Below, piece by piece: positions 231-19,726 of a DNA stretch of 64,000 bases. The notes beneath the pieces are model-generated. The model had not been told where the DNA came from. It saw nothing but the letters and a program-made list of their open reading frames with translations, and searched no databases. The DNA is from Leptolyngbyaceae cyanobacterium (GTDB lineage: Bacteria > Cyanobacteriota > Cyanobacteriia > Phormidesmidales > Phormidesmidaceae). Each line of letters begins with the position of its first letter. Positions within the stretch are counted from its first letter, which is position 1. Position numbers and translations under genes: made by a program. Where the stretch lies: the NCBI GenBank assembly GCA_965263355.1, contig CBDHHL010000032.1, forward strand, positions 2,880,001 to 2,944,000, given 5' to 3'.

Positions 231-2027
231 ATGATGACCGTTGATTATCAACCTAATCAGACGGCTGATGTCCCAAAGGTATCTCAGCGTCCTTGTTTGG
301 ATCTTACCGTTGTTATTCCTACCTATAACGGAGCTGAGCGTATTCCTCAGGTGCTGGATGCGCTGAAAATTCAGCAAGATATGGATGGCATCCGTTGGGA
401 AGTGATTGTCTGCGACAATAATAGTTGCGATCGCACCGTCAATATAGTTTTAGATTATCAGCATACCTGGTTGCAAGATGTGCCACTACGTTACTGCTTT
501 GTTGCAGAGCAGGGGGCAGCTTTTGCTAGACAGCGAGGAGTGGTAGAAGCCAGTGGTCATATAGTTGCATTTCTTGATGACGATAACATTCCGACCCGTA
601 ATTGGCTAAGCAACGTACATCGTTTTGCCCAGGCTTATCCCAAAGCTGGTGCATTTGGTAGTCAAATCCATGGTGAATTTCACGGTGAGTTGCCCGAAGG
701 GTTTGAGCATATTGCCTGTTTTTTAGCGATTGTTGAACGAGGTAATCAGCCTCATCTTTATCAACCTAAATCTAAAATTCTTCCGCCAGCGGCAGGCTTA
801 GCAGTTCGTCGTTCAGCTTGGCTGAAAGTAGTTCCAGAACGTCTGTTTTTAAATCACAAAGGCAAATCAGCAGGCTTGGCTAGTGAAGATCTAGAAGCAC
901 TACTGCATATTCAAAGAGCAGGTTGGGAGATTTGGTATAACTCTGATATGGTGGTTACCCATCAAATTCCTGATAGCCGTTTGACACGAGAATATTTAAT
1001 TTCTCTTCTGCGCTGTGTGGGACTTAGTCGATTTTACATTCGATTTTTAGGGGCTAAAGATTGGCAAAAGCTTTTTAAGGTGCCAGCCTACATTGCCAAT
1101 GACCTACGTAAGCTAGCGCTTCATTATATGAAAAATGGACTGCAACAATGCGATCTCGATATTGTTGCTGCTTGTGAACGTTCACTACTCACAAACACAG
1201 TTGTTAGTCCTGGCTTTTTGATGAGAAAGGCATTTCAGGATTTTTGGCAGAATCAGCGAGACAACAAGCAACTTCCCGAACGTCAACAATGGTTACGACG
1301 CTTGACAGATGCATTTGAAGGTAAGCAGCTAGATCTATATCAGCAAGCGGTTGTTTGCCTTGACTCATCACAGTCAGTAAATCTTGATAATACAGTTCTG
1401 TCTCAAATTGAAATCTTACTCAGATTGCGACAAAAATCTCCAGATCTTCCACCAATTTCTCCAGCTCAATTCTTTCCAACAGCTGAGCGCTATGGCCTGA
1501 TGCGTACGCTTGATCGGCGTGTGATTCAGCAGGTCTGCCAAACTTTGGAGGGACGTTCTCTGGAGGCAGCATATTCTTTAAATCTCTCTGCAGCTAGTGT
1601 TTGTGACCCTAGCTTTCCTGTTTTTCTAGAAGATCAGCTGAGACGTTATTGTGTAAATCCTGAGAATATATACTTTGAGATTTCTGAGTCTGTGATGATG
1701 GACTCATTATCTGAAGTTGCAGTCTTGATTGGGCGTATAAAACCCCTGGGGCTACGTGTGATTATTGACGAGATTGGTTATGTTGCGGAGTCATTGGATT
1801 ACATGGCGCAGTTGCCGATTGATTGCTTGAAACTAAGCAAAGAGCTAATTAGCCAACCTAAACGTTCAAGTTTAGCTTTGTCAAATTGGATTAAATTTAG
1901 TCGTCAAAGGGGGATTCAGTTGGTTGCCAAAGGTGTGGAAACACAGGCTGAAGTAGATTATCTGAAAAGTTTAGGCATTGATTATCTTCAAGGGTATTAC
2001 TTGTCAGAGCCATTTTCGTTTACTTAA
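231..2027 (+). CDS. HpsE-like GT2 glycosyltransferase fused to a C-terminal degenerate EAL domain
   Basis: N-term VVIPTYNG...CDNNS...GAAFAR...FLDDD GT2 motifs, paralogous to 3343..4323. C-term EILLRL, FEISES, KGVET and LQGYY resemble an EAL domain. Confidence 0.88.
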   Translation: MMTVDYQPNQTADVPKVSQRPCLDLTVVIPTYNGAERIPQVLDALKIQQDMDGIRWEVIVCDNNSCDRTVNIVLDYQHTWLQDVPLRYCFVAEQGAAFARQRGVVEASGHIVAFLDDDNIPTRNWLSNVHRFAQAYPKAGAFGSQIHGEFHGELPEGFEHIACFLAIVERGNQPHLYQPKSKILPPAAGLAVRRSAWLKVVPERLFLNHKGKSAGLASEDLEALLHIQRAGWEIWYNSDMVVTHQIPDSRLTREYLISLLRCVGLSRFYIRFLGAKDWQKLFKVPAYIANDLRKLALHYMKNGLQQCDLDIVAACERSLLTNTVVSPGFLMRKAFQDFWQNQRDNKQLPERQQWLRRLTDAFEGKQLDLYQQAVVCLDSSQSVNLDNTVLSQIEILLRLRQKSPDLPPISPAQFFPTAERYGLMRTLDRRVIQQVCQTLEGRSLEAAYSLNLSAASVCDPSFPVFLEDQLRRYCVNPENIYFEISESVMMDSLSEVAVLIGRIKPLGLRVIIDEIGYVAESLDYMAQLPIDCLKLSKELISQPKRSSLALSNWIKFSRQRGIQLVAKGVETQAEVDYLKSLGIDYLQGYYLSEPFSFT

Positions 2028-2066: not shown

Positions 2067-3278
2067 TTGTTAAGCACGAAGATATCAACGAGTTTTATGA
2101 TCGGTTTACCCAAAAAAATTGCAGTTCTTTTGCATGACCTTGACGCAGGAGGTATGCAAGCTATTTGCTTACGCCTGTTGACCTCATTGGCAAAACTACC
2201 TGCAATTGAACTGGAACTTATTTTGGCTAAGCGAACTGGCCTCTATATCAATCAACTGCCAGCTTCCGTCAAAGTTATTGACTTAGATGTCCCTTTTGAG
2301 CTGCGCCTTAAATGTATGTATAAGTTAACCCTGGCGCTCTCAAGCTACTTACGCTCTGCTCAGCCAGACATTATTCTGTCTAATTTACCCTTTGTTAACT
2401 TCGTTACAATTCTGGCTAAACTTGTTTCGCGAAGTTCAAGTATGTCTATCCTTGTGGAACATACCCTACCTCTCAAGCACTTCTTACAAAAGCAAGATAA
2501 TCAAAAGGTAAACGGTCAATTCCCTATTATTACTCATCAACTGGTTCGTTTACTTTATCCTTACGCTAATCATATTGTTGCCCCATCCACTGGTATTGCT
2601 TGTGAACTAGGGCAGTTTATTAAATTTAGACCTGAGCAGCTCAAAGTTATATACAATCCTGTTATAGATTCACAGCTTGAGGAAAAGTCTAGGATTAAGC
2701 CCGAGCATCCATGGTTTCGCTCAGGTGAACCGCCAGTATTACTGGCAGTTGGGAGGTTAGCTACCCAAAAAGACTATGAAACTCTTATTAGAGCTTTTGG
2801 TCAAGTTTCACAAACAAGGACTGTTCGTCTGATGATTCTTGGTGAGGGGGAGTTGCGGCCTCAATTAGAAGATTTAATCCAATCACTAGAACTTAAGCCC
2901 AATGTTGCCTTACCCGGTTTTGTGGGCAACCCCTACTCATACATGCGTGCATCATTTGCATTTATATTGTCTTCTATTTGGGAAATTTTGCCAACGGTGC
3001 TTATTGAAGCTCTAGCCTGTGAATGCCTGATAATATCTACTGATTGTGACTATGGCCCGGCTGAAATTCTTGAGGATGGAAAGTATGGGACGTTAGTTCC
3101 TGTAAATGATCCAACGACTCTAGCTAAAGCTATAGAAGCAATTTTTTCTTCATCCTATGAACAACTTTATCAACGGAAACAGATGTTGAAAGAGCGAACA
3201 AATGTATTTTCAACTGATTACTCGATTGAACAATATCTAAATCTTATGCAATTAGGTCGAGAGAATATTAATGAATAG
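2067..3278 (+). CDS. GT4 (GT-B) glycosyltransferase
   Basis: AGG N-term, VGRLATQKDY, SSIWEILPTVLIEALAC, DCDYGPAEIL motifs; likely start ATG at 2097. Confidence 0.9.
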   Translation: MLSTKISTSFMIGLPKKIAVLLHDLDAGGMQAICLRLLTSLAKLPAIELELILAKRTGLYINQLPASVKVIDLDVPFELRLKCMYKLTLALSSYLRSAQPDIILSNLPFVNFVTILAKLVSRSSSMSILVEHTLPLKHFLQKQDNQKVNGQFPIITHQLVRLLYPYANHIVAPSTGIACELGQFIKFRPEQLKVIYNPVIDSQLEEKSRIKPEHPWFRSGEPPVLLAVGRLATQKDYETLIRAFGQVSQTRTVRLMILGEGELRPQLEDLIQSLELKPNVALPGFVGNPYSYMRASFAFILSSIWEILPTVLIEALACECLIISTDCDYGPAEILEDGKYGTLVPVNDPTTLAKAIEAIFSSSYEQLYQRKQMLKERTNVFSTDYSIEQYLNLMQLGRENINE

Positions 3279-3342
3279 AAATTAAAGAAGTATCCGTAAA
3301 GCAGCGCAATGAGTTAATCAGTTCTTCTACATCAACATTATT

Positions 3343-4323
3343 ATGACAATTGATTTTACCCTGGTAATCCCCACCTATAATGGCGCAAAAAGGCTACCTT
3401 CCCTTTTGGATAGCCTGCTTGCACAAACTGATTTAGATCCGCTCTGCTGGCAAGTTATCGTTGTTGATAACAATAGCACTGATGCGACATCGCAAGTTTT
3501 GAAAGAGTATCAACAGACTTGGACAAGTAGTACAACCAATAGTTCCATAGAATATGTACTAGAAACTCAGCAAGGTGCAGCGTTTGCTCGTCAACGAGGC
3601 ATGCAGCTAGCAAAAAGCGAGCTAGTTGGCTTCCTTGATGATGATGTAGTTCCTGCTTCTGACTGGATTGCATCTGCTTATCAATTTGGACTAACGCATC
3701 CTAACGTAGGTGCCTATGGAGGACGCATCATTGGCAAGTTTGAAGTGGCACCACCCGAGAACTTTAAGAGAATTCAGTCGTTCCTCGCTATTCGAGACCG
3801 TGGTAGTTCCCCGCATCTCTACAAACCAGAGAATTTGATTTTGCCTCCTTCAGCAGCTTGGGTAATTAAAAAACAAGCTTGGCTAGAAACTGTTCCACCC
3901 CAGCCTAAGTTGAGTGGGCGAACGGGAAAATCCATGGTTCAGGGAGATGATTATGAACCGTTACTCCATATTCATAATGCAGGTTGGGAGATTTGGTATC
4001 ATCCTGGGATGTATGTTGAACATCATATTCCAGCGAGTAGACTGCAAGATGAGTATTTGCTTGCTCTCAGTCGTGGCTGTGGCTTATGTATTTTCCAATT
4101 ACGCCTGATCACATCTAAAAATTGGGAGAAGCCGATTACGCTTATCAAAATTGTGTTAGGAAACTTAAATAGAACGATATTACACTTCTTTAAATATCGT
4201 CAGCAGCTAAGGTCAGATATTGTAGCCCAGTGTGAGATGAATTTTTTTATAAGTGGTTTTTTGAGTCCTGCCTACTATTTTAGCCGTTTACTCAGAGATG
4301 CGTTCTCTCGGCAAGGTGTGTAG
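3343..4323 (+). CDS. hpsE: HpsE-like hormogonium polysaccharide GT2 glycosyltransferase
   Basis: LVIPTYNG, VDNNSTD, QGAAFARQ, FLDDD, AGWEIWY pattern typical of cyanobacterial HpsE-family GT2. Confidence 0.8.
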   Translation: MTIDFTLVIPTYNGAKRLPSLLDSLLAQTDLDPLCWQVIVVDNNSTDATSQVLKEYQQTWTSSTTNSSIEYVLETQQGAAFARQRGMQLAKSELVGFLDDDVVPASDWIASAYQFGLTHPNVGAYGGRIIGKFEVAPPENFKRIQSFLAIRDRGSSPHLYKPENLILPPSAAWVIKKQAWLETVPPQPKLSGRTGKSMVQGDDYEPLLHIHNAGWEIWYHPGMYVEHHIPASRLQDEYLLALSRGCGLCIFQLRLITSKNWEKPITLIKIVLGNLNRTILHFFKYRQQLRSDIVAQCEMNFFISGFLSPAYYFSRLLRDAFSRQGV

Positions 4324-4411
4324 ATGCTACTCTCTAACGCTGTGTGACCCTTGATGTTTATGCATTCTATACTGTCAGTTATTTGCTTAATGTTCTCTGG
4401 ATAATCAAAAT

Positions 4412-5602
4412 ATGGTCGTTATTAGAAAAAAGCCAATCATATTGCTGTATGGAGGTTTTTGGGCCGCTAACCGGTGTGAATATCTCGTAGAATTTTTAAT
4501 CGCTTCAGGATATTACGTATCTGGTGTTTTTCCAGATTTTTATTCTAGTGAAAGACAGCAAAGAAATTTTCTGACCAAAGTGTTTAGAAAAATAGCTTTT
4601 CCAGTTTTTGCCCTGATTGAGCTATTTGTGAAAGCTAGTTTTGCTGATGTTATATATATTTTACCTGGAAACGTAAGCCTCTTTAAATATGCCTTGCTAG
4701 CCGCAAGAGTTTTCAAAACTAGGATTATATTAGAGTTCTATGACAGTATGTATACTCACTATATGGAGAATAAAGGTGCAGGATCTATTGCTCCAGAAGA
4801 ACTCAAAAGAGTTAAGCAAGACAATGTTAACTTAAATCCTGAAAATGAAAAGCTTGCTATTAGAAAAGCAGACTATATTATTCATGTATCTAACTGTGAG
4901 CTTGGTTATCTCTCTAAAGTTTTAGAAATAAATATCGATTTTGATAAAGTCTTTGTGGTCCCTATCTTTTGTTCTGATAGGCCTGCCTATGCTAGAGAGT
5001 TTATGCAAGATGGCGTATTTAGGATATGTTGGTGGGGAAGCTTTTTGCCGATGCATGGCTTAGACTATATCCTGATTGCATTGAATAAGCTGAAGCAGGA
5101 TGGACTAAATTTTGAGTGCGACTTATTTGGAGCTTATTCTGCTGGCTCACGAGCTTACTTTTTTGAGAAATATAGGCAAGAAATTGCATCTCAGTCACTT
5201 GACTCGCATGTTAAGCTCAGGCGAGATTTAACGTTTATTGATGGCAAATTACCTGAATACCTTATAAGCCATTGTGATTTATCTTTAGGAATTTTTGGTG
5301 ATACTTTGAAAGCTGAGAGTTCTGTACCAAATAAGTTGATTGAATCCTTATCAATGGGAATTCCGACACTTACTCGCTCTTCTCCGGTGTTAGAGGAGTT
5401 TTTTGATGTGCAGGCAGACTTTTGGACTTGTCAACCTTCTCCAGAATCCATAGCCCAAGCAATTTCGGATGTTTACCATCAAAAATCGCATCCGGTACAT
5501 TGGGGGAAAACTCGAGATAAGGTTCGCAACACCTTTAATGCTGAAACCTATAGAAAGGTAGTTAGCAAGGTTTTGAATCAGGTGAATCAGGACTTACTCT
5601 AG
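4412..5602 (+). CDS. GT4-like glycosyltransferase (paralogue of 15336..16502)
   Basis: CWWGSFLPMHG, CDLSLGIFGDT.KA..VPNKLIESL motifs. Confidence 0.85.
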   Translation: MVVIRKKPIILLYGGFWAANRCEYLVEFLIASGYYVSGVFPDFYSSERQQRNFLTKVFRKIAFPVFALIELFVKASFADVIYILPGNVSLFKYALLAARVFKTRIILEFYDSMYTHYMENKGAGSIAPEELKRVKQDNVNLNPENEKLAIRKADYIIHVSNCELGYLSKVLEINIDFDKVFVVPIFCSDRPAYAREFMQDGVFRICWWGSFLPMHGLDYILIALNKLKQDGLNFECDLFGAYSAGSRAYFFEKYRQEIASQSLDSHVKLRRDLTFIDGKLPEYLISHCDLSLGIFGDTLKAESSVPNKLIESLSMGIPTLTRSSPVLEEFFDVQADFWTCQPSPESIAQAISDVYHQKSHPVHWGKTRDKVRNTFNAETYRKVVSKVLNQVNQDLL

Positions 5603-5636
5603 GTGTAAACTTTTTGACGTTTGCTTTAGTTTCTCT

Positions 5637-6917
5637 ATGCAAAGAAGTGTTTTTGTCCTACCCCGTGGTATTGAACTAGGAGGCGTAACTATCTGGTCGC
5701 TCAAGATGGTACGTCATCTAACTGACAGCAACTATTCTGCAAATATTTTAAGACATCAGGAAAGTAGCCCTGTTGATGATGATTTGTTGATTGCTCAGCT
5801 ACCAATCCTTAGCTGTCCAGGTAAACCTGCTTGGTCAGCCAATGTAAAGGATATCAAGACATATTTGCCAACCTATCAGCAAACATTGCCTGCCACGTTG
5901 ATTCCGAATTGGACTTTTGGAACCTATGCAACTTGTGCTGCTTTGAGTAGTACGCAGGCTGATGGTATGCGTGTCATTGGTATTGCCCACAGTGATGAGG
6001 ATATTTTTTATGCTTGGTTACAATATTACGAGCCGATTATTCATACGTATGTTGCCGTCAGTGAAAAAATTGCTACTGTTTTGAAGGCGCGATTACCCGA
6101 GCGTTCAGATGATATTGTTGTTAGGTCCTGTCCGGTCGATGTACCACCTGACTTTAATCGTATACCTGCTGATGGCAACAAGGTACCGATCAAGTTAATG
6201 TATGCAGGCAGAGTTCAAAATCAGCAAAAGCGTATCTCTGATTTGTTGATACTTGTTAAGCTACTAACCCAAAAGAAAATTGACTTTAAACTGACTATTG
6301 TGGGTGATGGTGGTGAAAGGCAGTGGTTGGAGAAACAGTTTGCGAGATTGATGGGGTCTGACGCGTGCCAAAAGGTTGTTTTTGTGGGTACAGTAAATCC
6401 TGATCAGATGCCCCACTATTGGCGATCAGCTGATATTGGTTTACTTGTTTCTGATTTTGAAGGGACTTCAATTTCTATGCTGGAGTCGATGGCCCAGGGT
6501 TGTGTTCCCATAGTCACTGATGTGAGTGGTGTTAAGGCTGTCATCCAGGATGGGGAAAATGGGTTTAAGGTTCCCATTGGGGATATGACTACCATGGCCA
6601 ATATTATTCAGCGCTTGCACACCGATAGGCAGCTATTACAGCAACTGGGACGGCAGGCTCATCTTAAGGTGCTTCATAACTATGCGTTTGCTGACTACAT
6701 TCCTTGGTTTGCGGAGTTGACAGAGCAGGGTTGGCAAAAACCACCAAGAAATTGGCCACCCGAACGGCCCTTATTGCCTGATCCGTTACCAACGCAGCCA
6801 CAATCAACACGCTACAGACGCGCTATTAATAAATTGAAAAAGTATCTATGGAATACGAAACTAATGATAAAACTTTATGGAGTTAATGCAATCCCATCTT
6901 TACTTAGTTGGGACTGA
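5637..6917 (+). CDS. GT4 glycosyltransferase
   Basis: YAGRVQNQQKR, SDFEGTSISMLESMAQG (EX7E), DGENG. Confidence 0.9.
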   Translation: MQRSVFVLPRGIELGGVTIWSLKMVRHLTDSNYSANILRHQESSPVDDDLLIAQLPILSCPGKPAWSANVKDIKTYLPTYQQTLPATLIPNWTFGTYATCAALSSTQADGMRVIGIAHSDEDIFYAWLQYYEPIIHTYVAVSEKIATVLKARLPERSDDIVVRSCPVDVPPDFNRIPADGNKVPIKLMYAGRVQNQQKRISDLLILVKLLTQKKIDFKLTIVGDGGERQWLEKQFARLMGSDACQKVVFVGTVNPDQMPHYWRSADIGLLVSDFEGTSISMLESMAQGCVPIVTDVSGVKAVIQDGENGFKVPIGDMTTMANIIQRLHTDRQLLQQLGRQAHLKVLHNYAFADYIPWFAELTEQGWQKPPRNWPPERPLLPDPLPTQPQSTRYRRAINKLKKYLWNTKLMIKLYGVNAIPSLLSWD

Positions 6918-7024: not shown

Positions 7025-8266
7025 ATGACGCATTCATCTTGTCGGTTTTGCAAGACACCTCTACATTACACATTTGCTAACTTGGGTGTTTCACCTATTT
7101 CAAATGATTACCTTGACCAGGCTCATCTTAAGCAGGCTGAAAAATTTTATCCATTACATGCATATATATGTGAAGAGTGTTTACTGGTTCAACTCGAAGA
7201 ATTTGAGTCTCCCGAGCATCTTTTTGGAGACGGTGACTATGCTTATTTTTCCTCCTATTCTGAAAACTGGCTGAATCATTCCAGGGCGTATACCGATTTA
7301 GTGATCGAGCGATTTGGCTTAAACGCTAATAATCTGGTAATCGAAATTGCAAGTAATGACGGCTATCTTCTGCAATATTTTGTCAAACAAGGTATTCCCG
7401 TGCTTGGTGTAGAGCCTGCTTCTAACGTGGCAGCCGCAGCTGTGGAGAAGGGGGTGCCAAGTTGGGTTAAGTTTTTTGGTGTCGAGACTGCAAAAGAACT
7501 AGTGGCCGCCAATAAACGGGCTGATCTTTTATTAGCTAACAATGTTTTGGCTCATGTGCCAGATTTGAATGATTTTGTTGCGGGGATGCAGATTGTCCTG
7601 AATCTGCAGGGGATTATTACAGTTGAGTTTCCTCACTTGCTGCGGTTAATTCGAGGTAATCAGTTTGATACTATCTACCACGAACATTTTTCCTATTTTT
7701 CCTTTTTAACTGTTGAGAAAATTTTTGCCCATCATAGGCTCACACTGTTTGATGTAGATGAGTTGTCAACCCATGGAGGATCGCTGCGTATCTATGCCCG
7801 CCATGTGGATGATTCTAGCCATCCTATTACTGAGAGAGTGAAGTTGCTGAGACAGAAAGAATTGGAAGCAGGTCTTACCGAAGTTCAGACGTATTTGAAT
7901 TTTGAAGAACAGATCAGGTCTACTAAACGCAAGCTGCTCAGTTTTTTAATTGAAGCTAAAGCAGAAAAAAAGGTGATTGTTGGTTATGGTGCTCCTGCCA
8001 AGGGAAATACCTTGCTTAATTACTGCGGTGTGGGGACAGATTTTCTCGACTATACGGTAGATTGCAATCCTCATAAGCAATCATTATTCTTGCCTGGTAC
8101 CCGTATTCCAATTTTTGCGCCTGATCGTATTTTTGAGACAAAGCCCGACTATGTGCTGATATTACCTTGGAATATTAAGGATGAGATCATGGGGCAGATG
8201 TCAGGGATCCGTGAATGGGGAGGGAAGTTTGTTACGCCAATTCCTGAGGTACAGATTTGCCCATAA
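7025..8266 (+). CDS. SAM-dependent NDP-hexose C-methyltransferase family protein
   Basis: Zn-binding CRFC...CEEC N-term, EIASNDGYLL, FDTIYHEH, HGGSLR, GYGAPAKG motifs. Confidence 0.9.
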   Translation: MTHSSCRFCKTPLHYTFANLGVSPISNDYLDQAHLKQAEKFYPLHAYICEECLLVQLEEFESPEHLFGDGDYAYFSSYSENWLNHSRAYTDLVIERFGLNANNLVIEIASNDGYLLQYFVKQGIPVLGVEPASNVAAAAVEKGVPSWVKFFGVETAKELVAANKRADLLLANNVLAHVPDLNDFVAGMQIVLNLQGIITVEFPHLLRLIRGNQFDTIYHEHFSYFSFLTVEKIFAHHRLTLFDVDELSTHGGSLRIYARHVDDSSHPITERVKLLRQKELEAGLTEVQTYLNFEEQIRSTKRKLLSFLIEAKAEKKVIVGYGAPAKGNTLLNYCGVGTDFLDYTVDCNPHKQSLFLPGTRIPIFAPDRIFETKPDYVLILPWNIKDEIMGQMSGIREWGGKFVTPIPEVQICP

Positions 8267-8374
8267 AGTGTGTAGGGGAGCAGGGATATGGTAGAGAAAT
8301 AGTTAGAGTCCATGATTGCGTCCCCACTTTAAAGGCAACATGTAAACAACTAAACAATTGAATCTACAAGACTG

Positions 8375-9097
8375 ATGCAATGCTTTAATAATCAGACTGC
8401 TGTAGTAACGGGTGCAAGTAGTGGAATTGGGCGGGCAACAGCGCTGGCTCTTGCACAGCAGGGTGCTAATCTCTGTTTGCTGGGTAGGAACAAGTCTGCC
8501 CTTGAAGCTGTTGTCAAGCAAGCTGAATCATATAATGTACAGGCAATTTCCTGTCCTTTTGATTTAGCTGAGATCGCATCTACTCAAGCCATGCTAGCTG
8601 CCCTTAAACAGGTGCAAGAGGTGCATATCCTTATACATAGTGCTGGTACTTTCACACTGGGTAGTTTGTCAAATTCTTCTCTGGTGTCGTTAGACTATCA
8701 ATATAAGGTGAATGTTCGAGCACCCTACTTGATCACGCAAGTGCTGCTATCCAGAATGCCTGCGTTCAATGCCCAAATTGTGTTTGTTAATTCAACTCTA
8801 GGGTTGGTGGCGAAGGGGGGAGTTGGTCAATATGCTGCTTCTAAACATGCGTTAAAGGCAATTGCTGATAGTTTACGTGAAGAACTCAGTTCTCAGGGGA
8901 TTCGAGTTTTGAGTGTCTATCCTGGACGAACAGCCAGTCCTATGCAAGCCCAGGTTCATGTCTTAGAAGGTAAGCCTTATTTGCCCGATAGCCTCATGCA
9001 GCCTGAAGATGTTGCGGCGACTATTGTGCACACCTTGGGGTTACCAAAGACTGCTGAGGTGACCGATCTAAGGCTAGTTCCTCGTAAGAATCAATAG
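8375..9097 (+). CDS. Short-chain dehydrogenase/reductase
   Basis: TGASSGIG NAD(P) motif and YAASK catalytic motif. Confidence 0.92.
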   Translation: MQCFNNQTAVVTGASSGIGRATALALAQQGANLCLLGRNKSALEAVVKQAESYNVQAISCPFDLAEIASTQAMLAALKQVQEVHILIHSAGTFTLGSLSNSSLVSLDYQYKVNVRAPYLITQVLLSRMPAFNAQIVFVNSTLGLVAKGGVGQYAASKHALKAIADSLREELSSQGIRVLSVYPGRTASPMQAQVHVLEGKPYLPDSLMQPEDVAATIVHTLGLPKTAEVTDLRLVPRKNQ

Positions 9098-9396: not shown

Positions 9397-10329
9397 GTGT
9401 TACCAAATTTCCTGGTTATTGGCGCAGCGAAGGCAGGGACTACATCTCTCCACAGTTATCTGACCCAGCATCCAGAAATTTATATGAGTTCTGTCAAGGA
9501 ACCGGGCTACTTTATGTTTGCTGACGATGGCCTTACCTATGAAGGCCCGAAAGATATAGAGGTATTACAAAATCTGGGTTTTGATGTTACGGATTTGGAT
9601 GTTTATCAAAGCTTATTTAGGGATACCTTGGATGCAAGGGCTGTAGGTGAGTCAACTCCTTTCTATCTATATAGTGCCAAAGCTTGTCAACGGATTAAAT
9701 ATCTTATTCCTGATGTAAAGCTTATTGCGATTTTACGCAGTCCTATGGAGCGTGCTTATTCTAACTATATGCATCAAGTGAATTGGGGACGTGAAAGTCT
9801 TCGAACGTTTGATCAAGCACTTCAAGCAGAAGAGGATCGGATTGCGCATAACTGGCACCCGGTTTGGCATTATAAAGAACAGGGATTTTATTTTGCTCAG
9901 CTGAAGCGATATTTTGATGAATTTCCTCGCAGTCAGATTAGGGTTTACCTTTATGAGGATCTAAATCGAAATGCCACTGCATTAATGCAAGATATTTTTC
10001 AGTTTCTTGGTGTTGATGATAGCTTTTGTTCAGATGTAACTGTTAGACATAACAGTTCAGATAGTGCAAAGAAAATAGCTGACAATGTGAGGCATGAGGC
10101 CTTGCTTCAGCAATTTAGGCGTCTTAAACCCATGACTGCAAGGCTTATGCCAGATGCTTTGCAGCGTCTGCTTGGTAAAGGATTGGGGGCTATAATCAGA
10201 AAAAATGTCAGCTATACTACTCCGCCATTCACAGCAGCTGTTCGAAGCAAACTACTGTCAGCGTATCGCGATGATATTCTCAAACTACAGGAGTTGATTC
10301 AAAAAGATCTTGCTGACTGGCTGGTTTAA
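9397..10329 (+). CDS. PAPS-dependent sulfotransferase
   Basis: PNFLVIGAAKAGTTSL 5'-PSB loop, GESTPFY, LRSPMERAYS 3'-PB motif; GTG start after GGAGG. Confidence 0.92.
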   Translation: MLPNFLVIGAAKAGTTSLHSYLTQHPEIYMSSVKEPGYFMFADDGLTYEGPKDIEVLQNLGFDVTDLDVYQSLFRDTLDARAVGESTPFYLYSAKACQRIKYLIPDVKLIAILRSPMERAYSNYMHQVNWGRESLRTFDQALQAEEDRIAHNWHPVWHYKEQGFYFAQLKRYFDEFPRSQIRVYLYEDLNRNATALMQDIFQFLGVDDSFCSDVTVRHNSSDSAKKIADNVRHEALLQQFRRLKPMTARLMPDALQRLLGKGLGAIIRKNVSYTTPPFTAAVRSKLLSAYRDDILKLQELIQKDLADWLV

Positions 10330-10735: not shown

Positions 10736-13700
10736 ATGGTTAAGCAGGTATCTCATCTTAAATATTCATCTCAGCAGAGTGATTCTTCTGTTGTAGAGAC
10801 GTCAGGATCTGGTGATAAATCTGATCAGCTTGTAATCTCATCTACCTTTACGGCAGAGCCTATTCAGGAAACTTTGCAGTTTTGGCTGGCGCAGCTTGGG
10901 TTGCCATGGGTAGTTTCGTTTGCTGATTATAATCAAGTTTTTCAGCAACTTCTCAATCCGACGAGTCTGATGGCTCAAAATCAGGGGGGAGTGAATCTTG
11001 TTTTACTGCGTATTGAAGATTGGGGCCGATTTCAATCGTTGTCTGGTGATGATCGCTTAGACGATGACTCAGACGAGTGGAAACTATCCCTAGAACACAG
11101 TGCCCAGGACTTTATCGATGCGATGGGCACTGTCGCTCGTCAATCGTCTACGTCTTATTTAGTTGCGTTTTGTCCCAGTAAACCTGGAATATCAGCTGTC
11201 CATGATCAGTGGTATACACGCTTGGAGGGCACAATTGCAGAGGCCCTGGCCCCCTTGCAAAGTGTATATCTGATACGCTCGGCAGATATTTTCTCTCGCT
11301 ATCCTGTCCCTGACTACTATGACGAAAGTCGAGATCGCGTAGGTCATATTCCTTACACTGATCTTGCATTTGCGGCTTTAGGGACCGTGTTAGCACGTGA
11401 AATTTACGCGCTTAAGCGCCCGCCATATAAGGTAATTGCCCTTGATTGCGATCGCACTCTATGGAGCGGTATCTGTGGTGAGGATGGTCCGTTAGGGGTT
11501 GCAGTTGATGAGCCTTTCAAAGCATTACAGTCGTTTATGGTGCGTTGTAGTGAGTTAGGACTGTTGCTTTGTTTGTGTAGTAAAAATGTCGAAGAAGATG
11601 TTTGGCAAGTCTTTTCTCAGCGGGATGATATGGTGCTCAGCCGTGACCATATTGTAGCTTGGCGAATTAATTGGGAACCTAAATCGGAAAATTTGAGATC
11701 ACTGGCTGCAGAACTTAATCTGGGCCTGGATAGCTTTATCTTTGTTGACGATAACCCGGTTGAATGTTCTGAAGTGCAGGCACGTTGCCCAGAGGTATTA
11801 ACACTACAGCTGCCCAATGATCCTGATAAGATTCCGGCTTTTTTAGATCATATTTGGCCTTTCGATCTGCTCAAAGTCACGGATGCTGATAAACAACGCA
11901 CTCAGCTCTATCAGCAAAACCGGAAACGTAGCAAGTTTGAGCAGGAATCTATTGACTTCCAATCCTTTATCCAAGGATTGCAGATTGATATTCAGATTAT
12001 GCCACCGTTGCCATCGCAGATGGGGCGTGTGGCTCAGCTTACCCAGCGGACCAATCAGTTTAATGCCACTACCCGTCGTCGTACTGAGTCTGAGATTCAG
12101 CATTGGTGTGAGGCCCAAGGCTATGGCTGTCGGGCGGTCGTGGTTAAGGATCGCTTTGGCGATTATGGTTTAGTTGGGGTCATGTTGTTTCAGTTGCAGG
12201 ATGATACGTTAGAAGTAGATACCTTGTTGTTAAGCTGCCGGGTTTTAGGGCGTGGTGTGGAGTATCGGATGGTTGCTCACCTTGGTGAGATTGCAACCAA
12301 ACAAAATCTCTCATCTGTTGTTATTAAGTATATTCCTACACCTAAAAATAAGCCCATGGACAAATTTTTATCATCCATCGGCCATCCATATTGCCACCCT
12401 CAATCAAGTTATACCAGCTATAGTTTCCCCACCGAGTTTGCCAGTAATCTTACTTTTGAAGTTAGTGAACTTGAAAATCAGCAGCATGTTAATGCTGCTG
12501 GTACAGCATCTACTAAAAAGACAGCAACTTCTCTGACCACTTCCTCTGAGATAGGTATTAACAAGAAATCTGAAAGATGGAATCATATTGCTGTAGCCTT
12601 GACAACACCCGCTCAGATTGTAGAAGCTGTTAATCAAGCTTTTCAGCGCCAAAATACATATACCTCCTCTACTAATAATCCATGGGTGGCACCGCGGACT
12701 GAAATAGAAACGACCCTAGCGAATATATGGTGTAAGACGCTACGGCTAGATTGTGTCAGCGTGCAGGATGATTTCTTTGCCCTGGGTGGAAACTCGCTTC
12801 TGGCGGTCGATGTTTTTACCCGTATTGAAGATATCTTTCGAAGACGTTTACCGATTACGACTCTTTTGAACGCGCCTACGATTGAACAATTGGCGCAAAT
12901 TGTAGAGCAGGACGATAGTCAAGATGTTTGGAATCCTCTTGTACCTGTTAGGGAGAACGGAGAGCGTCCTCCCCTATTTGTTGTGCATGGAGGCTTTGGA
13001 GATGCCTTAAGTATTGCTCAGATTGCACCACATCTGAGTAGCAATCAACCCTTTTATGCCTTGAGAGGGGTAGGCTTAGATGGTAAGCAGCTACCCCTAG
13101 AGAATCTTGAAACAATGGCGTCCAAGTATCTAGAAGCCATTAAAGTAGTTTTCCCCCAGGGGCCTTATCGCTTAGCAGGTCAATGTTCTGGGGGGATTGT
13201 CGCCTTTGAAATGGCCCAACAACTGATAGCACAAGGTGAGCAGGTCGACTTTTTAGGGTTAATTGATACACCCTACCCTCAATTAGAAAATCATTTTAAT
13301 AATCGTTACCGCTATTACCACCATTTCCCTACCTATCGCTACGGGCAGTGGGATATAAATTACTATCTTTTTACTGCAATTGTCTATTTATTCCGTAAAT
13401 GGCCTCATATGTTTCGATATCATTACCGAGAGTTGGTTAAGCAAAGCTGGCAGGGACGCTTAGAATATGTAGTCAGTTATTTGCGTAAGCTAATAGAAAT
13501 TCTAAGTCGTCGGTTAGAGGTGCGTAAAAAACATATAGATGTAGCGCCTTCATCTTCTCATCATCATTCTTCTAAGAGAGATACTCAAACTAATCCTGTA
13601 GCGAGTGGATTAACAGCTTCTTCTGAAGATCTGCCACAAATATCCAGCTCATCCCAAGAAAATTTTCGTTGGGTGAAAGATCGTTTTTTTGAAGTCTTCT

Positions 13701-13987
13701 TGAGAGCTCAAAAGCGTTATATGCCCAAAGCCTATCCTGGCAAGATTCATTTCTTTTTAACAACCTTAGATACCTATGTTTCTAAGCACCATCCTTATAA
13801 TCCACGCTCTTTTGTCCTGAACAAAAATATAGTGGCGTCGGTCGCTCAGCTTCGATTTGGCTGGGATAAGTTAGTAGAGCCTGAGAATTTTAGAATCCAT
13901 CCTATGCAGATTGAACATGATCAAATGCTTGATTTACCCTATGTTCAGTTACTAGGCAAAGCTTTAGACGAGCACTTGCAGAAATAA
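10736..13987 (+). CDS. FkbH-like (HAD-IIIC) glyceryl transferase/phosphatase fused to a carrier protein and a thioesterase domain
   Basis: LDCDRTLW, CSKN, INWEPKS, FVDDNPVE, QRTNQFN, DRFGDYG, SCRVLGRG (FkbH); DDFFALGGNSL (phosphopantetheine Ser); LAGQCSGGIVAFEMA and IEHDQML (thioesterase fold). Confidence 0.9.
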   Translation: MVKQVSHLKYSSQQSDSSVVETSGSGDKSDQLVISSTFTAEPIQETLQFWLAQLGLPWVVSFADYNQVFQQLLNPTSLMAQNQGGVNLVLLRIEDWGRFQSLSGDDRLDDDSDEWKLSLEHSAQDFIDAMGTVARQSSTSYLVAFCPSKPGISAVHDQWYTRLEGTIAEALAPLQSVYLIRSADIFSRYPVPDYYDESRDRVGHIPYTDLAFAALGTVLAREIYALKRPPYKVIALDCDRTLWSGICGEDGPLGVAVDEPFKALQSFMVRCSELGLLLCLCSKNVEEDVWQVFSQRDDMVLSRDHIVAWRINWEPKSENLRSLAAELNLGLDSFIFVDDNPVECSEVQARCPEVLTLQLPNDPDKIPAFLDHIWPFDLLKVTDADKQRTQLYQQNRKRSKFEQESIDFQSFIQGLQIDIQIMPPLPSQMGRVAQLTQRTNQFNATTRRRTESEIQHWCEAQGYGCRAVVVKDRFGDYGLVGVMLFQLQDDTLEVDTLLLSCRVLGRGVEYRMVAHLGEIATKQNLSSVVIKYIPTPKNKPMDKFLSSIGHPYCHPQSSYTSYSFPTEFASNLTFEVSELENQQHVNAAGTASTKKTATSLTTSSEIGINKKSERWNHIAVALTTPAQIVEAVNQAFQRQNTYTSSTNNPWVAPRTEIETTLANIWCKTLRLDCVSVQDDFFALGGNSLLAVDVFTRIEDIFRRRLPITTLLNAPTIEQLAQIVEQDDSQDVWNPLVPVRENGERPPLFVVHGGFGDALSIAQIAPHLSSNQPFYALRGVGLDGKQLPLENLETMASKYLEAIKVVFPQGPYRLAGQCSGGIVAFEMAQQLIAQGEQVDFLGLIDTPYPQLENHFNNRYRYYHHFPTYRYGQWDINYYLFTAIVYLFRKWPHMFRYHYRELVKQSWQGRLEYVVSYLRKLIEILSRRLEVRKKHIDVAPSSSHHHSSKRDTQTNPVASGLTASSEDLPQISSSSQENFRWVKDRFFEVFLRAQKRYMPKAYPGKIHFFLTTLDTYVSKHHPYNPRSFVLNKNIVASVAQLRFGWDKLVEPENFRIHPMQIEHDQMLDLPYVQLLGKALDEHLQK

Positions 13988-16632: not shown

Positions 16633-17571
16633 ATGAATTATCAAAAATCCTTGGAAAATAATGCGATTCAGTATTCAAAAATAACTTCTAAAAAATCATC
16701 TAGCTTTAATAGATTTGAAAATCTTCAAGATTATCAGTACTTAAAGAACTATCAGATTGTCGTCCTTCCAGATAGTGAAATTATAAATAACCTTTGCGTC
16801 ATCTACTGTTCTAGTCATGGTATCTATCCCGATAGGAAGTCTGCTTTCTATAAGCATGTTGTCGAGCAGGATAGATATGAATGGAAACGTAATATGATAA
16901 AAAATGCTAAAAAGTCTATTTTTATCAGAGATTTGAAGAAGCAATGGTATTTAGAAGGAATTAATTCATCCATTAACTCACTTAGTAAGTTATTAGACTT
17001 TTTGCAAGAAGAGATTGCTGATATGAATCTAATATGTATTGGTAATTCAGCTGGAGGATATTTAGCGACTCTCTTAGGTTGTGAATTGAAAGCTTCTCAT
17101 GTATTTACCTTTTCAGGTCAGTTTTCTCTGTATCCTTATCTAGAGAATCAGAAAAATCCAGTTTTGATGAAATATCAAGGAACACAGCTAGCTCAATCTT
17201 TTTATTCATTGGCGTCTAGATTGAAATCAAGTCAAGTTCCAATTTTTTATTTTTATCCTATCGGTAGTCAATCTGATCAAAAACAAGTTTTAACGCTGAA
17301 GAATATATCTAATATTTATAAAATCCCATTCAAAGTGAGTAAACATGGTAAAACTTGTTTACCTATTAATTTTTCAAACTTGTTTAGGATGAATGTATCA
17401 GAACTGAAAAGTTTAAGTGAAAAGTTTTCAGATGGCGTTCATCCCATATGCTTTTCAATTGAAATATCAGGGTATAGAAAAACATTTATGTTTTTGATTG
17501 AACGATATTTCAAACAATGTTGGCGCTATTGCAAATTAAATCTGAAAATTTTTCCAAGCATTAGAGCTTGA
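16633..17571 (+). CDS. Alpha/beta-hydrolase-like protein, very AT-rich
   Basis: FIRDLKKQWY and CIGNSAGGY nucleophile elbow; late H in SKHG. Confidence 0.6.
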   Translation: MNYQKSLENNAIQYSKITSKKSSSFNRFENLQDYQYLKNYQIVVLPDSEIINNLCVIYCSSHGIYPDRKSAFYKHVVEQDRYEWKRNMIKNAKKSIFIRDLKKQWYLEGINSSINSLSKLLDFLQEEIADMNLICIGNSAGGYLATLLGCELKASHVFTFSGQFSLYPYLENQKNPVLMKYQGTQLAQSFYSLASRLKSSQVPIFYFYPIGSQSDQKQVLTLKNISNIYKIPFKVSKHGKTCLPINFSNLFRMNVSELKSLSEKFSDGVHPICFSIEISGYRKTFMFLIERYFKQCWRYCKLNLKIFPSIRA

Positions 17572-17638
17572 TGCCTTACTAGATGGCTTGATTCAAGTTG
17601 TCTTTAATGTCTGGGTGTAATTGTTTGAGCGCATTGAG

Positions 17639-18523
17639 TTAATGAATTGACGCAGTTTTCATAGGTAGAATAGCTAAATTTCTTTCCTCTTCATTGAAAA
17701 CGGAGATTTGATCCTTATCTAACTTTTTTTGACGTGAAATTTTGCCTGATTTCAATACAACTGAATCATCTCCGTATCTAAGGATGCCCGTGGTTTTAGA
17801 GACTGTGTATTCCTCAGAAAATGTAGCTTGGGTTTGGAGAAATGATTTGAATTTATTTAAAGACTTATCTGTTTGGTGCAGTAAATCTTCATACTTTACG
17901 AATAAACAACGCTCCTGATCGTCGATTTGCTGTGCTCGTTTTTGTAGGAAGTCGAGACGTTCTTGATAATACTGAAACCAGGTATCGAAATTTTGATATT
18001 GCCTAAGTCCATAGCAATTCTTACCAAGTTTAGCAGCACTTTCGAATGAGGCAGCCGGATCCCTTAGTAAAAAAATAAATTTGACCCATTTATTTGTCAG
18101 AATAGTATTTGATAAGTCATGGTTTCTAACTATCTTATCCATGACATAACTGGCATTGTCAAAGTCAAAAGAATTTTGGATAACAGCAGTTCTGTATATC
18201 AGCTTTTCTAGATCTTGATAGCTTGAATACGTGCAATGGCTTTCACCAAAACCCTCAATTTCAGGATTACTGTTTAGTAAATGGACGAGTAAAGAAGATC
18301 CAGAGCGCATGGGAGAGAGTACAAGTAGGTAACGTAGTTGATGGTTGCGCTTACCTAATCGATATTGAAAATAAGGTTTTAATAGTTTGTAGGCGTAAAG
18401 CTCAAATAATGTCTTGCTGGCTTGCTGGGCAAGAACTGATCTGTAGCTATTCACAAAAAATAAGCGCACCCTTTCAGGGATGCGTATTCGTATATGGAAC
18501 CTACTATTTGCTTTGGCGCTCAT
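17639..18523 (-). CDS. Sulfotransferase-family protein (C-terminus possibly frameshifted)
   Basis: LSPMRSGSSLL 5'-PSB-like loop, FLLRDP, VKYEDL. Confidence 0.8.
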   Translation of the reverse strand: MSAKANSRFHIRIRIPERVRLFFVNSYRSVLAQQASKTLFELYAYKLLKPYFQYRLGKRNHQLRYLLVLSPMRSGSSLLVHLLNSNPEIEGFGESHCTYSSYQDLEKLIYRTAVIQNSFDFDNASYVMDKIVRNHDLSNTILTNKWVKFIFLLRDPAASFESAAKLGKNCYGLRQYQNFDTWFQYYQERLDFLQKRAQQIDDQERCLFVKYEDLLHQTDKSLNKFKSFLQTQATFSEEYTVSKTTGILRYGDDSVVLKSGKISRQKKLDKDQISVFNEEERNLAILPMKTASIH

Positions 18524-18814
18524 AGTATCTACCTATGTAATGTGCTATCCAGATGTGAGACCTTGGATTGTCGATTCTATGCTTATGTCTATCTTTTATG
18601 CGCTCACTCTGAGTAACTTGCTATTAATTTCTACTATTTCTAAAAGCTCTTAATATATTTATCAGCATGCTTTAAGTAAGCTTTATAAAATGGTGAGATT
18701 TGTTTGATGTTCTAATCCAGAAATTGTAGATTTTATTGTCATATTTCTATGAGATTTATGTTGCTCTGAATAAATTCGGCTTAAGCTATAAGTTTATTGT
18801 ATACATAGGGCTAA

Positions 18815-19726
18815 ATGATGCTGAAGGATTTTAAAGTAACCTTTATTCAGGAACTGCTCAAGCGTAACTTTTATCTTTCGAATCTCTATGAGAATAGAAA
18901 AGTCGCAAGGAGTGATGCGAAGACAAATAAAATCCTGGTCTACCAGATGGGAAAGGTAGCTTCAACTAGTCTGTATAAAACACTTAAAAAACTACAACTA
19001 GATGCTTCTATCTACCATTTACATGTTCTGCAACCGTCATCTATCGATAGAGTGATGCAATCCTATAAGCGTAGATTCTTACATACTCCTAGGATTGATG
19101 AACATATTATTCATAGTCAATATCTTAGAAGGGCTTTGAATAAAGGTTTTGAAACGTTAAACCCAAAGTGGAAAATAATAACTTTGGTTCGAGACCCAAT
19201 TGCTCGCAATATTTCAGAGTTTTTTCAAAGATTACCTCATGAATCTGGATTTGTGAGTATAGAGGATGAAAAGAATATTGACTTGAGTGTACAAAGCCTA
19301 ATTCAAAATTATTTTCAAATCTATAACAATAAACCCCATCCATTTAATTGGTTAGATTTAGAGTTAAGAGCAGTTTTTGACATTGATATTCCATTGTGTG
19401 ATTTTCCTAAAGCTAACGGATTTAAGATTTATACGTACGATCACGTTGATGTACTACTTATAAAACTTGAGAAACTTAATGAGTGTGTCAATGAAGCACT
19501 GGTTGAGTTTTTGAATCTTAAAAGAGATAAAGAAATAAATCTTGTTAAGGCTAATGAGTCAAGTCAGAAAAAGCAAGGAGAACTCTACACAAGATTTAAG
19601 AAGTTGATTGAGTTTTCTCCTGAGTATCTAGATAAAATGTATAAACAAAAACAACTTGAAGAAATTTACAGTGAAGTTGAAATTGAGCATTTCTATCGTC
19701 GATGGCGAGTTATGAAAAGTATTTGA
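18815..19726 (+). CDS. Putative capsular polysaccharide synthesis protein (sulfotransferase-like fold)
   Basis: VYQMGKVASTSL, KIITLVRDPIARNISEFFQ, C-term F...W pattern. Confidence 0.78.
   Translation: MMLKDFKVTFIQELLKRNFYLSNLYENRKVARSDAKTNKILVYQMGKVASTSLYKTLKKLQLDASIYHLHVLQPSSIDRVMQSYKRRFLHTPRIDEHIIHSQYLRRALNKGFETLNPKWKIITLVRDPIARNISEFFQRLPHESGFVSIEDEKNIDLSVQSLIQNYFQIYNNKPHPFNWLDLELRAVFDIDIPLCDFPKANGFKIYTYDHVDVLLIKLEKLNECVNEALVEFLNLKRDKEINLVKANESSQKKQGELYTRFKKLIEFSPEYLDKMYKQKQLEEIYSEVEIEHFYRRWRVMKSI

What the first reader, a model, noticed from the sequence alone, without database searches (positions are those of the whole stretch)
10736..13987. Stand-alone FkbH-carrier-thioesterase with a Cys nucleophile inside a polysaccharide locus: candidate glyceroylation machine
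Seen: one polypeptide with FkbH motifs, a GGNSL carrier domain and a TE whose GxSxG elbow reads G-Q-C-S-G; no KS, A or C domain gene is in the window, and its neighbours are GTs and sulfotransferases. Established: FkbH enzymes load glycerate from 1,3-bisphosphoglycerate onto carrier proteins, usually for PKS/NRPS; Cys-for-Ser thioesterases tend toward acyl transfer; glycerate is a known EPS substituent (gellan). Inference: a mini assembly line that transfers glyceryl from a Calvin-cycle/glycolytic intermediate onto a sugar acceptor, which I do not recognise as described for cyanobacterial glycans.
Basis: partly seen in the sequence, partly recalled or inferred. Interest (0 to 1): 0.82.

Follow-up and report, generated by a model that had tools for sequence, protein, structure and literature searches.

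The report
Glycerate-loading acyltransferase for cyanobacterial polysaccharide
One gene inside a cyanobacterial cluster of sugar-transfer genes encodes a predicted glycerate loader, a carrier domain and a cysteine thioesterase in a single protein; relatives swap the loader but keep the same thioesterase at the same place, so it likely hangs a small hydroxy acid on a secreted polysaccharide by an apparently undescribed route.

Summary
Observation confirmed: 10736-13987 encodes an intact FkbH–carrier–thioesterase (Cys817/Asp844/His1061) in an hpsE glycosyltransferase island; the window has no KS, A or C domain. The architecture is not rare (108 of the top 120 homologues), and Cys alone proves little (23 of 108 thioesterases without FkbH have it). 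The scan met this family before on other DNA. New here: the window's thioesterase clade (G-Q-C) is fused to three different hydroxy-acid loaders (FkbH, MaoC/reductase-FkbH, keto-acid A-KR). In 12 of 13 genomes that have the clade it lies in or beside the same island; 6 of 11 complete islands carry a loader. In a second, separate Cys-thioesterase clade, loader–carrier–thioesterase genes and WcaB-like O-acetyltransferases alternate beside one glycosyltransferase (6 versus 11 of 20 loci, never both). Best reading (0.55): the thioesterase is an acyltransferase that esterifies D-glycerate onto a glycan precursor, a strain-variable decoration. Main rival (0.2): the tethered glycerate is glycosylated and released. 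No biochemistry or expression data; the acceptor is unknown. Gellan is a loose analogy, since it carries L-glycerate. Closest precedent: Pks13 thioesterase acylating trehalose. New variant of a known kind; interest 0.68.

The parts
10736..13987 (+). FkbH-carrier-thioesterase gene, 1083 aa
   Evidence: P0001
10823..11410 (+). N-terminal FkbH accessory domain, residues about 30-225
   Evidence: conserved in alignment A1 and present before FkbH in the loci; no Pfam hit in this protein
11426..12385 (+). FkbH catalytic region (HAD-IIIC phosphatase with DCDRT, then the part with LLSCR, Cys501)
   Evidence: TIGR01686 291 bits, TIGR01681 63 bits; D237, D239, T241, K283, D338, D339, C501 invariant in 46 rows
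12713..12901 (+). NRPS-type carrier domain, Ser687 in GGNSL
   Evidence: PF00550 47.5 bits; Ser687 invariant; best PDB matches are NRPS carrier domains
12971..13984 (+). Thioesterase of the G-Q-C clade: Cys817, Asp844, His1061, long aromatic lid
   Evidence: PF00975 82 bits; triad invariant in 8 rows; clade of 28 rows, support 99; model pLDDT 71 matches type I thioesterases
231..2027 (+). HpsE glycosyltransferase fused to a degenerate EAL domain; left anchor of the island
   Evidence: NF038302 421 bits, EAL 154 bits; 55 of 172 genomes
2067..6917 (+). GT4, HpsE (GT2), GT4, GT4 genes of the island
7025..9097 (+). Sugar C-methyltransferase-like gene and short-chain reductase
   Evidence: PF08484/PF08421 and PF00106; also in other islands
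9397..10329 (+). Sulfotransferase directly upstream
   Evidence: PF13469 58 bits
14247..16502 (+). GT2 and GT4 directly downstream; close to core genes of related islands (up to 76% identity)
16633..17571 (+). Island gene of unknown family (weak alpha/beta-hydrolase match below cut-off)
17639..18523 (-). Sulfotransferase
   Evidence: PF13469 45 bits
18815..19726 (+). NKWYS / sulfotransferase-like capsule protein
   Evidence: PF10364 72 bits
19837..24587 (.). Conserved right flank of the island: hypothetical gene (-) and GH38 alpha-mannosidase (+); a landmark, not shown to be part of the pathway

Best explanation
The gene encodes a self-contained loader-carrier-thioesterase in an hpsE glycosyltransferase island that is predicted to load D-glycerate from 1,3-bisphosphoglycerate and likely esterifies it onto a sugar of the secreted polysaccharide, as an optional decoration. 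Step 1 (family knowledge, motifs shown): the FkbH part dephosphorylates 1,3-bisphosphoglycerate and passes glyceryl to the pantetheine arm on Ser687. Step 2 (triad shown, chemistry inferred): glyceryl moves to Cys817. Step 3 (inferred from gene context): the thioesterase gives it to a sugar hydroxyl on a cytoplasmic glycan precursor (lipid-linked oligosaccharide or nucleotide sugar) built by the island's glycosyltransferases, doing the job that a CoA-dependent O-acetyltransferase does in other clusters. The thioesterase would set the acceptor and the exchangeable front end would set the acyl group.
For: (1) Loader swap: the G-Q-C thioesterase clade (28 rows, support 99; 19 rows, support 99) holds FkbH-T-TE, MaoC/short-chain-reductase-FkbH-T-TE (P0014, P0015) and A-KR-T-TE proteins whose best PDB match is the A-KR-carrier structure 6ULW (E 1e-221); none has a C domain. 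(2) Position: 13 of 172 genomes of one family have the clade; in 12 of the 13 it lies in the hpsE island or against its flank. Of 11 complete islands, 2 hold FkbH-T-TE, 4 hold A-KR-T-TE at the same place, 5 hold none; G041 and G049 hold both types side by side. (3) In the two long-contig genomes checked the nearest C domain on the same contig is 0.8 Mb (G038) and 1.3 Mb (G032) away. (4) Sister clade (support 100): beside one rhamnosyltransferase-like GT2, 11 of 20 loci have a WcaB/EpsC-like acetyltransferase, 6 have an A-domain loader-T-TE, 0 have both, 3 neither (Fisher p 0.002, loci not independent); 0 of 16 FkbH-T-TE loci with that GT2 have it. (5) Precedent for a thioesterase acylating a sugar: Pks13 onto trehalose (PMC7261415, passages); side-chain transfer by thioesterases of separate modules (PMC12979598, passages).
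Against: No biochemistry, no polymer structure. The acetyltransferase alternation is seen only in the sister clade, whose thioesterase is 22% identical; the five loader-less islands of the window's own kind carry no such acetyltransferase. G010 has the gene outside the island with no glycosyltransferase nearby; 15 of 40 stand-alone loci show no glycosyltransferase (7 of these run into a contig end), including all 4 Ser-type and all 3 GFCAG loci; in the three GFCAG genomes the GT2 copy fetched already has an acetyltransferase. G098's copy lacks residues 1-281, so copies do decay. The island genomes are kin, so position is partly inheritance. All three loaders of the clade should give 2-hydroxy acids, which also fits glycosylation of that hydroxyl. 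No aminotransferase or export gene lies in the window, so the acceptor cannot be named.
Confidence: 0.55

Rival explanations
1. A neighbouring glycosyltransferase glycosylates the hydroxyl of the tethered glycerate, and the thioesterase releases a glycosylglycerate, either free (a solute) or onto a polymer as a ready-made branch.
For: All loaders in the window's clade should make 2-hydroxy acids. Loader-bearing islands often bring an extra GT2 that loader-less islands lack: cluster c23 in 5 genomes and GT2d in 3, all with a loader. In the sister clade the loader and one GT2 travel as a two-gene cassette, sometimes with a pantetheinyl transferase, between housekeeping genes. A GH38 gene with a weak match to mannosylglycerate hydrolase flanks the island (110 bits against a cut-off of 1138).
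Against: The window has neither c23 nor GT2d. The sister GT2 occurs in 99 of 401 genomes, far more than the FkbH protein (18 of 401 at E 1e-190), and pairs with an acetyltransferase in 11 of 20 loci, where no acyl hydroxyl is on offer. GH38 flanks the island whether or not a loader is there.
Confidence: 0.2
2. The protein is a side-chain module for a small molecule or glycolipid made by genes elsewhere; its thioesterase transfers glyceryl to a peptide, polyketide or lipid acceptor, and the island is only its address.
For: Thioesterases of separate NRPS modules do this in FR900359, necroxime and salinamide (PMC12979598, passages). The FkbH-carrier unit is close to those in giant NRPS (37-47% identity), and 5 of 5 genomes checked hold C domains somewhere. 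The window's own genome is not held.
Against: 1 of 40 stand-alone loci has a C-domain NRPS in the fetched span; 12 of 13 genomes keep the clade at the glycan island through rearrangements and loader changes; 3 of 5 sister-clade genomes showed no C domain (incomplete assemblies).
Confidence: 0.1
3. The thioesterase is a plain hydrolase, so the protein turns 1,3-bisphosphoglycerate into free (possibly sulfated) glycerate, or it is a drifting remnant of an NRPS starter module.
For: Cys is common in ordinary thioesterases (23 of 108); Asp844 sits at the usual position, not at the shifted position of the ring-forming SulM and ObiF1 enzymes (PMC11298585, passages); stand-alone FkbH-T-TE proteins draw their thioesterases from many unrelated clades; a sulfotransferase lies directly upstream, and FkbH-carrier-sulfotransferase starters are known (PMC10143770, passages).
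Against: A 1750-residue ATP- and NADPH-consuming A-KR module at the same place would be a wasteful way to make a free hydroxy acid; the clade keeps an invariant triad and a lid about 70 residues longer than other thioesterases; sulfotransferases occur in islands with and without loaders.
Confidence: 0.1

Closest known systems
FkbH glyceryl loaders and FkbH-carrier starter modules (tetronate and methoxymalonyl pathways; vioprolide, cystomanamide, suomilide, varlaxin NRPS)
   Same: Same family, motifs and predicted loading of D-glycerate from 1,3-bisphosphoglycerate onto a carrier (PMC8949500, PMC7489565, PMC10143770, passages).
   Different: In the described cases a C domain, KS or FabH-like enzyme takes the glyceryl group. 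Here the carrier is followed directly by a thioesterase, and the neighbours are glycosyltransferases.
Pks13 thioesterase (mycolate precursor onto trehalose)
   Same: A C-terminal type I thioesterase that transfers an acyl group from its carrier to a sugar (PMC7261415, passages); top Foldseek matches of the model (E 2e-12).
   Different: 16-18% identity and TM-score about 0.5, a general fold match only; Ser nucleophile; very long acyl chain made by a full PKS; free disaccharide acceptor.
Transacylating thioesterases of separate NRPS modules (FR900359, necroxime, salinamide) and the O-acylating OocS TE-B
   Same: A small module loads a side chain and its thioesterase esterifies it onto another molecule (PMC12979598, passages); 7R0X is among the matches.
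   Different: Acceptors are peptides or polyketides from the same cluster; none is a polysaccharide.
Carrier-protein acylation of surface glycans (Flavobacterium psychrophilum wfp genes; Dlt pathway, recalled)
   Same: An acyl group built on a dedicated carrier ends up on a polysaccharide sugar (PMC6519341, passages; predicted there).
   Different: Those use discrete carriers with a PglD-like or membrane acyltransferase; here loader, carrier and the proposed transferase are one polypeptide and the transferase is a thioesterase.
Hormogonium polysaccharide (hps) genes of Nostoc punctiforme
   Same: Two HpsE glycosyltransferases above the family cut-off anchor the island; HPS is needed for gliding (PMC9239167, passages).
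   Different: No acyl decoration or carrier protein appears in the passages read; matches to HpsN, O and P are below cut-off; the main hps paper (PMID 32614458) is not held.
Gellan L-glycerate ester; N-glyceroyl pseudaminic acid of Tannerella forsythia
   Same: Glycerate as a glycan substituent; for Tannerella the gene was called elusive in 2018 (PMC6120980, passages).
   Different: Gellan carries L-glycerate (PMC9104527, passages), FkbH should give D; no amino-sugar genes lie in the window.

Membership tests
FkbH glyceryl transferase/phosphatase (TIGR01686) | Profile score above the curated cut-off | tested here: met
   291 bits against 147
FkbH glyceryl transferase/phosphatase (TIGR01686) | HAD DxDxT motif with downstream Lys and Asp-Asp; conserved Cys in the C-terminal part (its role as acyl acceptor is recalled, not from a call) | tested here: met
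   D237, D239, T241, K283, D338, D339, C501 invariant in 46 rows
FkbH glyceryl transferase/phosphatase (TIGR01686) | Loads glyceryl from 1,3-bisphosphoglycerate onto a carrier | not testable with these tools
   needs an in vitro assay
Peptidyl/acyl carrier domain | PF00550 match with the pantetheinylated Ser | tested here: met
   47.5 bits against 20.8; Ser687
Peptidyl/acyl carrier domain | A pantetheinyl transferase in the genome | not testable with these tools
   none in the window; genome not held; adjacent in 5 homologous loci
Type I thioesterase | Alpha/beta-hydrolase fold with nucleophile-Asp-His triad after a carrier | tested here: met
   PF00975; Cys817, Asp844, His1061 invariant; Foldseek matches; triad geometry not inspected
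SulM/ObiF1-type ring-forming Cys thioesterase | Catalytic Asp moved to the loop after strand 7 | tested here: not met
   Asp844 lies 27 residues after Cys817, the usual position, as in AB3403
NRPS/PKS assembly line | A C or KS domain to extend the starter, in the gene or the cluster | tested here: not met
   genome outside the window not available
Transacylating thioesterase (Pks13, FR900359/salinamide type, OocS TE-B) | Intermolecular acyl transfer to an acceptor, shown biochemically | not testable with these tools
   only gene context
Transacylating thioesterase (Pks13, FR900359/salinamide type, OocS TE-B) | Specific sequence or structural kinship | tested here: inconclusive
   Pks13 and 7R0X match at 16-18% identity, TM about 0.5, no better than AB3403 or 7CRN; they were not in my trees
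hps (hormogonium polysaccharide) gene set | HpsE glycosyltransferase | tested here: met
   421 and 450 bits against 300
hps (hormogonium polysaccharide) gene set | Other hps genes and secretion genes | tested here: inconclusive
   none above cut-off among the 16 ORFs scanned; in Nostoc they lie at several loci, and this genome is not held

The most novel reading that the evidence does not exclude
Bacteria have a widespread, undescribed class of glycan O-acyltransferases: NRPS-like loader-carrier-thioesterase proteins in which the thioesterase recognises a sugar acceptor and the front end is exchangeable (glycerate by FkbH, lactate by reductase-FkbH, other 2-hydroxy acids by A-KR, aromatic acids or dipeptides by A domains beside HPPD). 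It arose at least twice from separate Cys-thioesterase clades and replaces CoA-dependent acetyltransferases in polysaccharide clusters, including the cyanobacterial motility slime.
Probability: 0.4. Interest if true: 0.85.

Novelty: new variant of a known kind. Interest (0 to 1): 0.68.

Why it matters
If right, it gives a gene for hydroxy-acid decorations of bacterial polysaccharides whose enzymes are largely unknown, shows NRPS machinery working as a glycan-modifying enzyme, and predicts that strains of one cyanobacterial family tune their secreted slime by exchanging one acyl-loading module. Glycerate esters change gel strength in gellan (PMC9104527, passages), so such decorations could matter for gliding, mat texture and polymer engineering. 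It would also mean that many orphan single-module NRPS genes flagged by genome mining make no small molecule at all. A single 1083-residue protein makes the idea directly testable.

Full report
Observation. The ORF at 10736-13987 is intact and 1083 residues long. It carries an FkbH domain well above the TIGR01686 cut-off, a carrier domain and a thioesterase. No other KS, A or C domain lies in the window. The gene sits among seven glycosyltransferases and three sulfotransferase-like genes; two of the glycosyltransferases pass the cut-off for HpsE, a hormogonium polysaccharide enzyme. Photosynthesis-linked genes in the window (Raf1, NDH-1 subunits) and the source names of the closest homologues (Leptolyngbya, Leptothoe) point to a filamentous cyanobacterium. 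No whole genome is held.

How common. The architecture is widespread: 108 of the top 120 homologues are FkbH proteins under 1150 residues with a C-terminal thioesterase. The nucleophile is Cys in 82 and Ser in 36 of the 120; 2 are fragments. Among C-terminal thioesterases of proteins without FkbH, 23 of 108 have Cys, so Cys is enriched here but is no proof of transfer. The same FkbH-carrier unit is often part of larger proteins: 38 of 80 genome loci, against 15 stand-alone FkbH-T-TE, 20 FkbH-T and 7 others. A thioesterase tree (164 rows, subsampled, FastTree) shows that stand-alone FkbH-T-TE proteins draw their thioesterases from several clades. The window's protein belongs to a small G-Q-C clade of 28 rows (support 99).

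Neighbourhoods of stand-alone proteins. I mapped 40 loci, the window included (Pfam labels cover cluster representatives and ORFs within about 6.5 kb, so counts are lower bounds; L072 was dropped because its gene did not cluster). A glycosyltransferase lies in the mapped span in 25; a C-domain NRPS in 1. Of the 15 without, 7 run into a contig end. All 4 Ser-type loci and all 3 GFCAG loci are among the 15.

The loader is exchangeable. Searching with the thioesterase alone gave whole-domain matches at E below 1e-55 only to FkbH-T-TE, to MaoC/reductase-FkbH-T-TE (P0014; P0015 has the same build) and to A-KR-T-TE proteins; two C-domain proteins matched over a third of the domain only. The A-KR proteins match the A-KR-carrier structure 6ULW over 1190 residues and nest inside the G-Q-C clade. 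In one cyanobacterial family 13 of 172 genomes have the clade, while 55 of 172 have the HpsE-EAL anchor. Between that anchor and a conserved right flank (a hypothetical gene and GH38) lies a variable island. Of 11 islands seen whole, the window and G038 hold FkbH-T-TE; G063, G092, G068 and G048 hold A-KR-T-TE; G084, G026, G008, G080 and G113 hold neither. G041 and G049 hold both types next to each other. In 12 of the 13 genomes the clade lies in the island or against a flank; G010 is the exception. None of 20 more distant hpsE stretches had a loader. These genomes are related, so the position is partly inherited, but it has survived rearrangement and at least one change of loader. In G038 and G032 the nearest C domain on the same contig is 0.8 and 1.3 Mb away.

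A parallel case. A second Cys clade (support 100; 22% identical to the first) spans cyanobacteria, Planctomycetota, Myxococcota and Pseudomonadota, and in 16 loci lies within three genes of one rhamnosyltransferase-like GT2. That GT2 is in 99 of 401 cyanobacterial genomes. I fetched 20 further copies: 15 chosen for high score and long contigs without knowing their neighbours, 5 from genomes with FkbH-T-TE on another contig. Eleven have an adjacent hexapeptide acetyltransferase that resembles EpsC, CysE and WcaB (all below cut-off), six have an A-domain loader-T-TE with the same thioesterase clade, none has both, three have neither (Fisher p 0.002, not corrected for kinship). None of the 16 FkbH loci has that acetyltransferase. 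Several of these GT2 copies lie among Wza, Wzc and Wzx genes. The simplest reading is that loader-carrier-thioesterase and acetyltransferase fill the same slot: acylating a sugar. Against this, two of the six are two-module NRPS with a C domain, the three GFCAG genomes keep an acetyltransferase beside their GT2, and the pattern is not shown for the window's own clade.

Mechanism. FkbH domains load and dephosphorylate D-1,3-bisphosphoglycerate onto a carrier (PMC8949500, passages; PMC7489565, passages). With no condensing enzyme, the thioesterase is the only exit. Its triad is invariant in 8 of 8 rows; the model (pLDDT 71, eight-row alignment) is a type I thioesterase with a long helical lid, and its top matches are Pks13 thioesterase and AB3403 at TM-score about 0.5, which shows fold, not function. 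Asp844 is at the usual position, unlike the ring-forming Cys enzymes SulM and ObiF1 (PMC11298585, passages). I infer transfer from Cys817 to a sugar hydroxyl of a cytoplasmic precursor of the island's glycan, and put this at 0.55. Since about half of the complete islands lack a loader, it would be a decoration and not needed for polymer synthesis.

What is known. Thioesterases that acylate another molecule are established: Pks13 onto trehalose (PMC7261415, passages), and side-chain modules in FR900359, necroxime and salinamide (PMC12979598, passages). Carrier-fed acylation of O-polysaccharide sugars has been proposed with discrete proteins (PMC6519341, passages). An fkbH-domain gene lies in the Campylobacter flagellar glycosylation locus (PMC7099621, passage), and the gene for N-glyceroyl in Tannerella was called elusive (PMC6120980, passage). 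Gellan carries L-glycerate (PMC9104527, passages), the wrong hand for an FkbH product. Six searches of the held library showed no paper on FkbH-carrier-thioesterase proteins in glycan loci; I read listings and passages, not whole texts, and subscription journals, supplements and the main hps paper were out of reach. The scan itself has met the family before on other DNA (e1-9578789, e1-3349890, e1-3958361); those notes agree but are not independent evidence. The loader swap in the hpsE island and the alternation with acetyltransferases do not appear in the lines shown from them.

Verdict. The feature is real, the parts are known kinds, and the combination appears undescribed: a new variant of a known kind. 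Every catalytic step beyond the motifs is inferred. Interest 0.68; if the general class of thioesterase-type glycan acyltransferases with exchangeable loaders holds (probability 0.4), 0.85.

Noticed in passing
window 231-2027: HpsE is fused to an EAL domain that keeps E-x-L-L-R but lacks the DDFG and EGVE motifs (motif roles recalled), so it may be a c-di-GMP-binding glycosyltransferase. The fusion is in 55 of 172 genomes of one family.
   Followed up: partly
L272, L274, L276, L277, L284, L285: A-T-TE (about 1200 aa) or A-T-C-A-T-TE (about 2300 aa) genes with the sister Cys thioesterase sit just upstream of the same GT2; 5 of 6 are beside an HPPD gene and 4 of 6 near a chorismate mutase/prephenate dehydrogenase gene. 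Suggests an aromatic acyl group such as homogentisate or hydroxymandelate on a glycan.
   Followed up: partly
L114, L115, L215, L219, L220, L222: The A domains of the island A-KR-T-TE proteins share DHVGSLVRC[CS]IRD and GMSET, with Val where amino-acid A domains have Asp (position recalled) and several conserved Arg: probably an anionic keto-acid substrate. A ketopantoate reductase-like gene is adjacent in G041, G049 and G057.
   Followed up: partly
L237, L239, L240 (G026, G008, G080): Three of five loader-less complete islands carry a GMC oxidoreductase at about the loader's place; none of the loader-bearing islands does.
   Followed up: no
P0014, P0015: MaoC-like dehydratase and short-chain reductase fused in front of FkbH-T-TE, like the lactate-forming starter of bryostatin (recalled); neighbourhood unknown.
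   Followed up: partly
G098, L112-L113: Copy lacking residues 1-281, at a rearranged island end.
   Followed up: partly
loci, e.g. L002, L011, L013, L031, L035, L038: 20 of 80 loci hold a stand-alone FkbH-carrier of 700-770 aa with no thioesterase; neighbours not studied.
   Followed up: no
window 16633-19726: Low G+C stretch (0.30-0.37 against 0.47-0.50 for the flank) at the right end of the island, in keeping with gene turnover; the FkbH gene itself is 0.44.
   Followed up: no
window 42415-44769: NACHT NTPase with NCH2 domain in a low G+C patch; possible defence gene.
   Followed up: no
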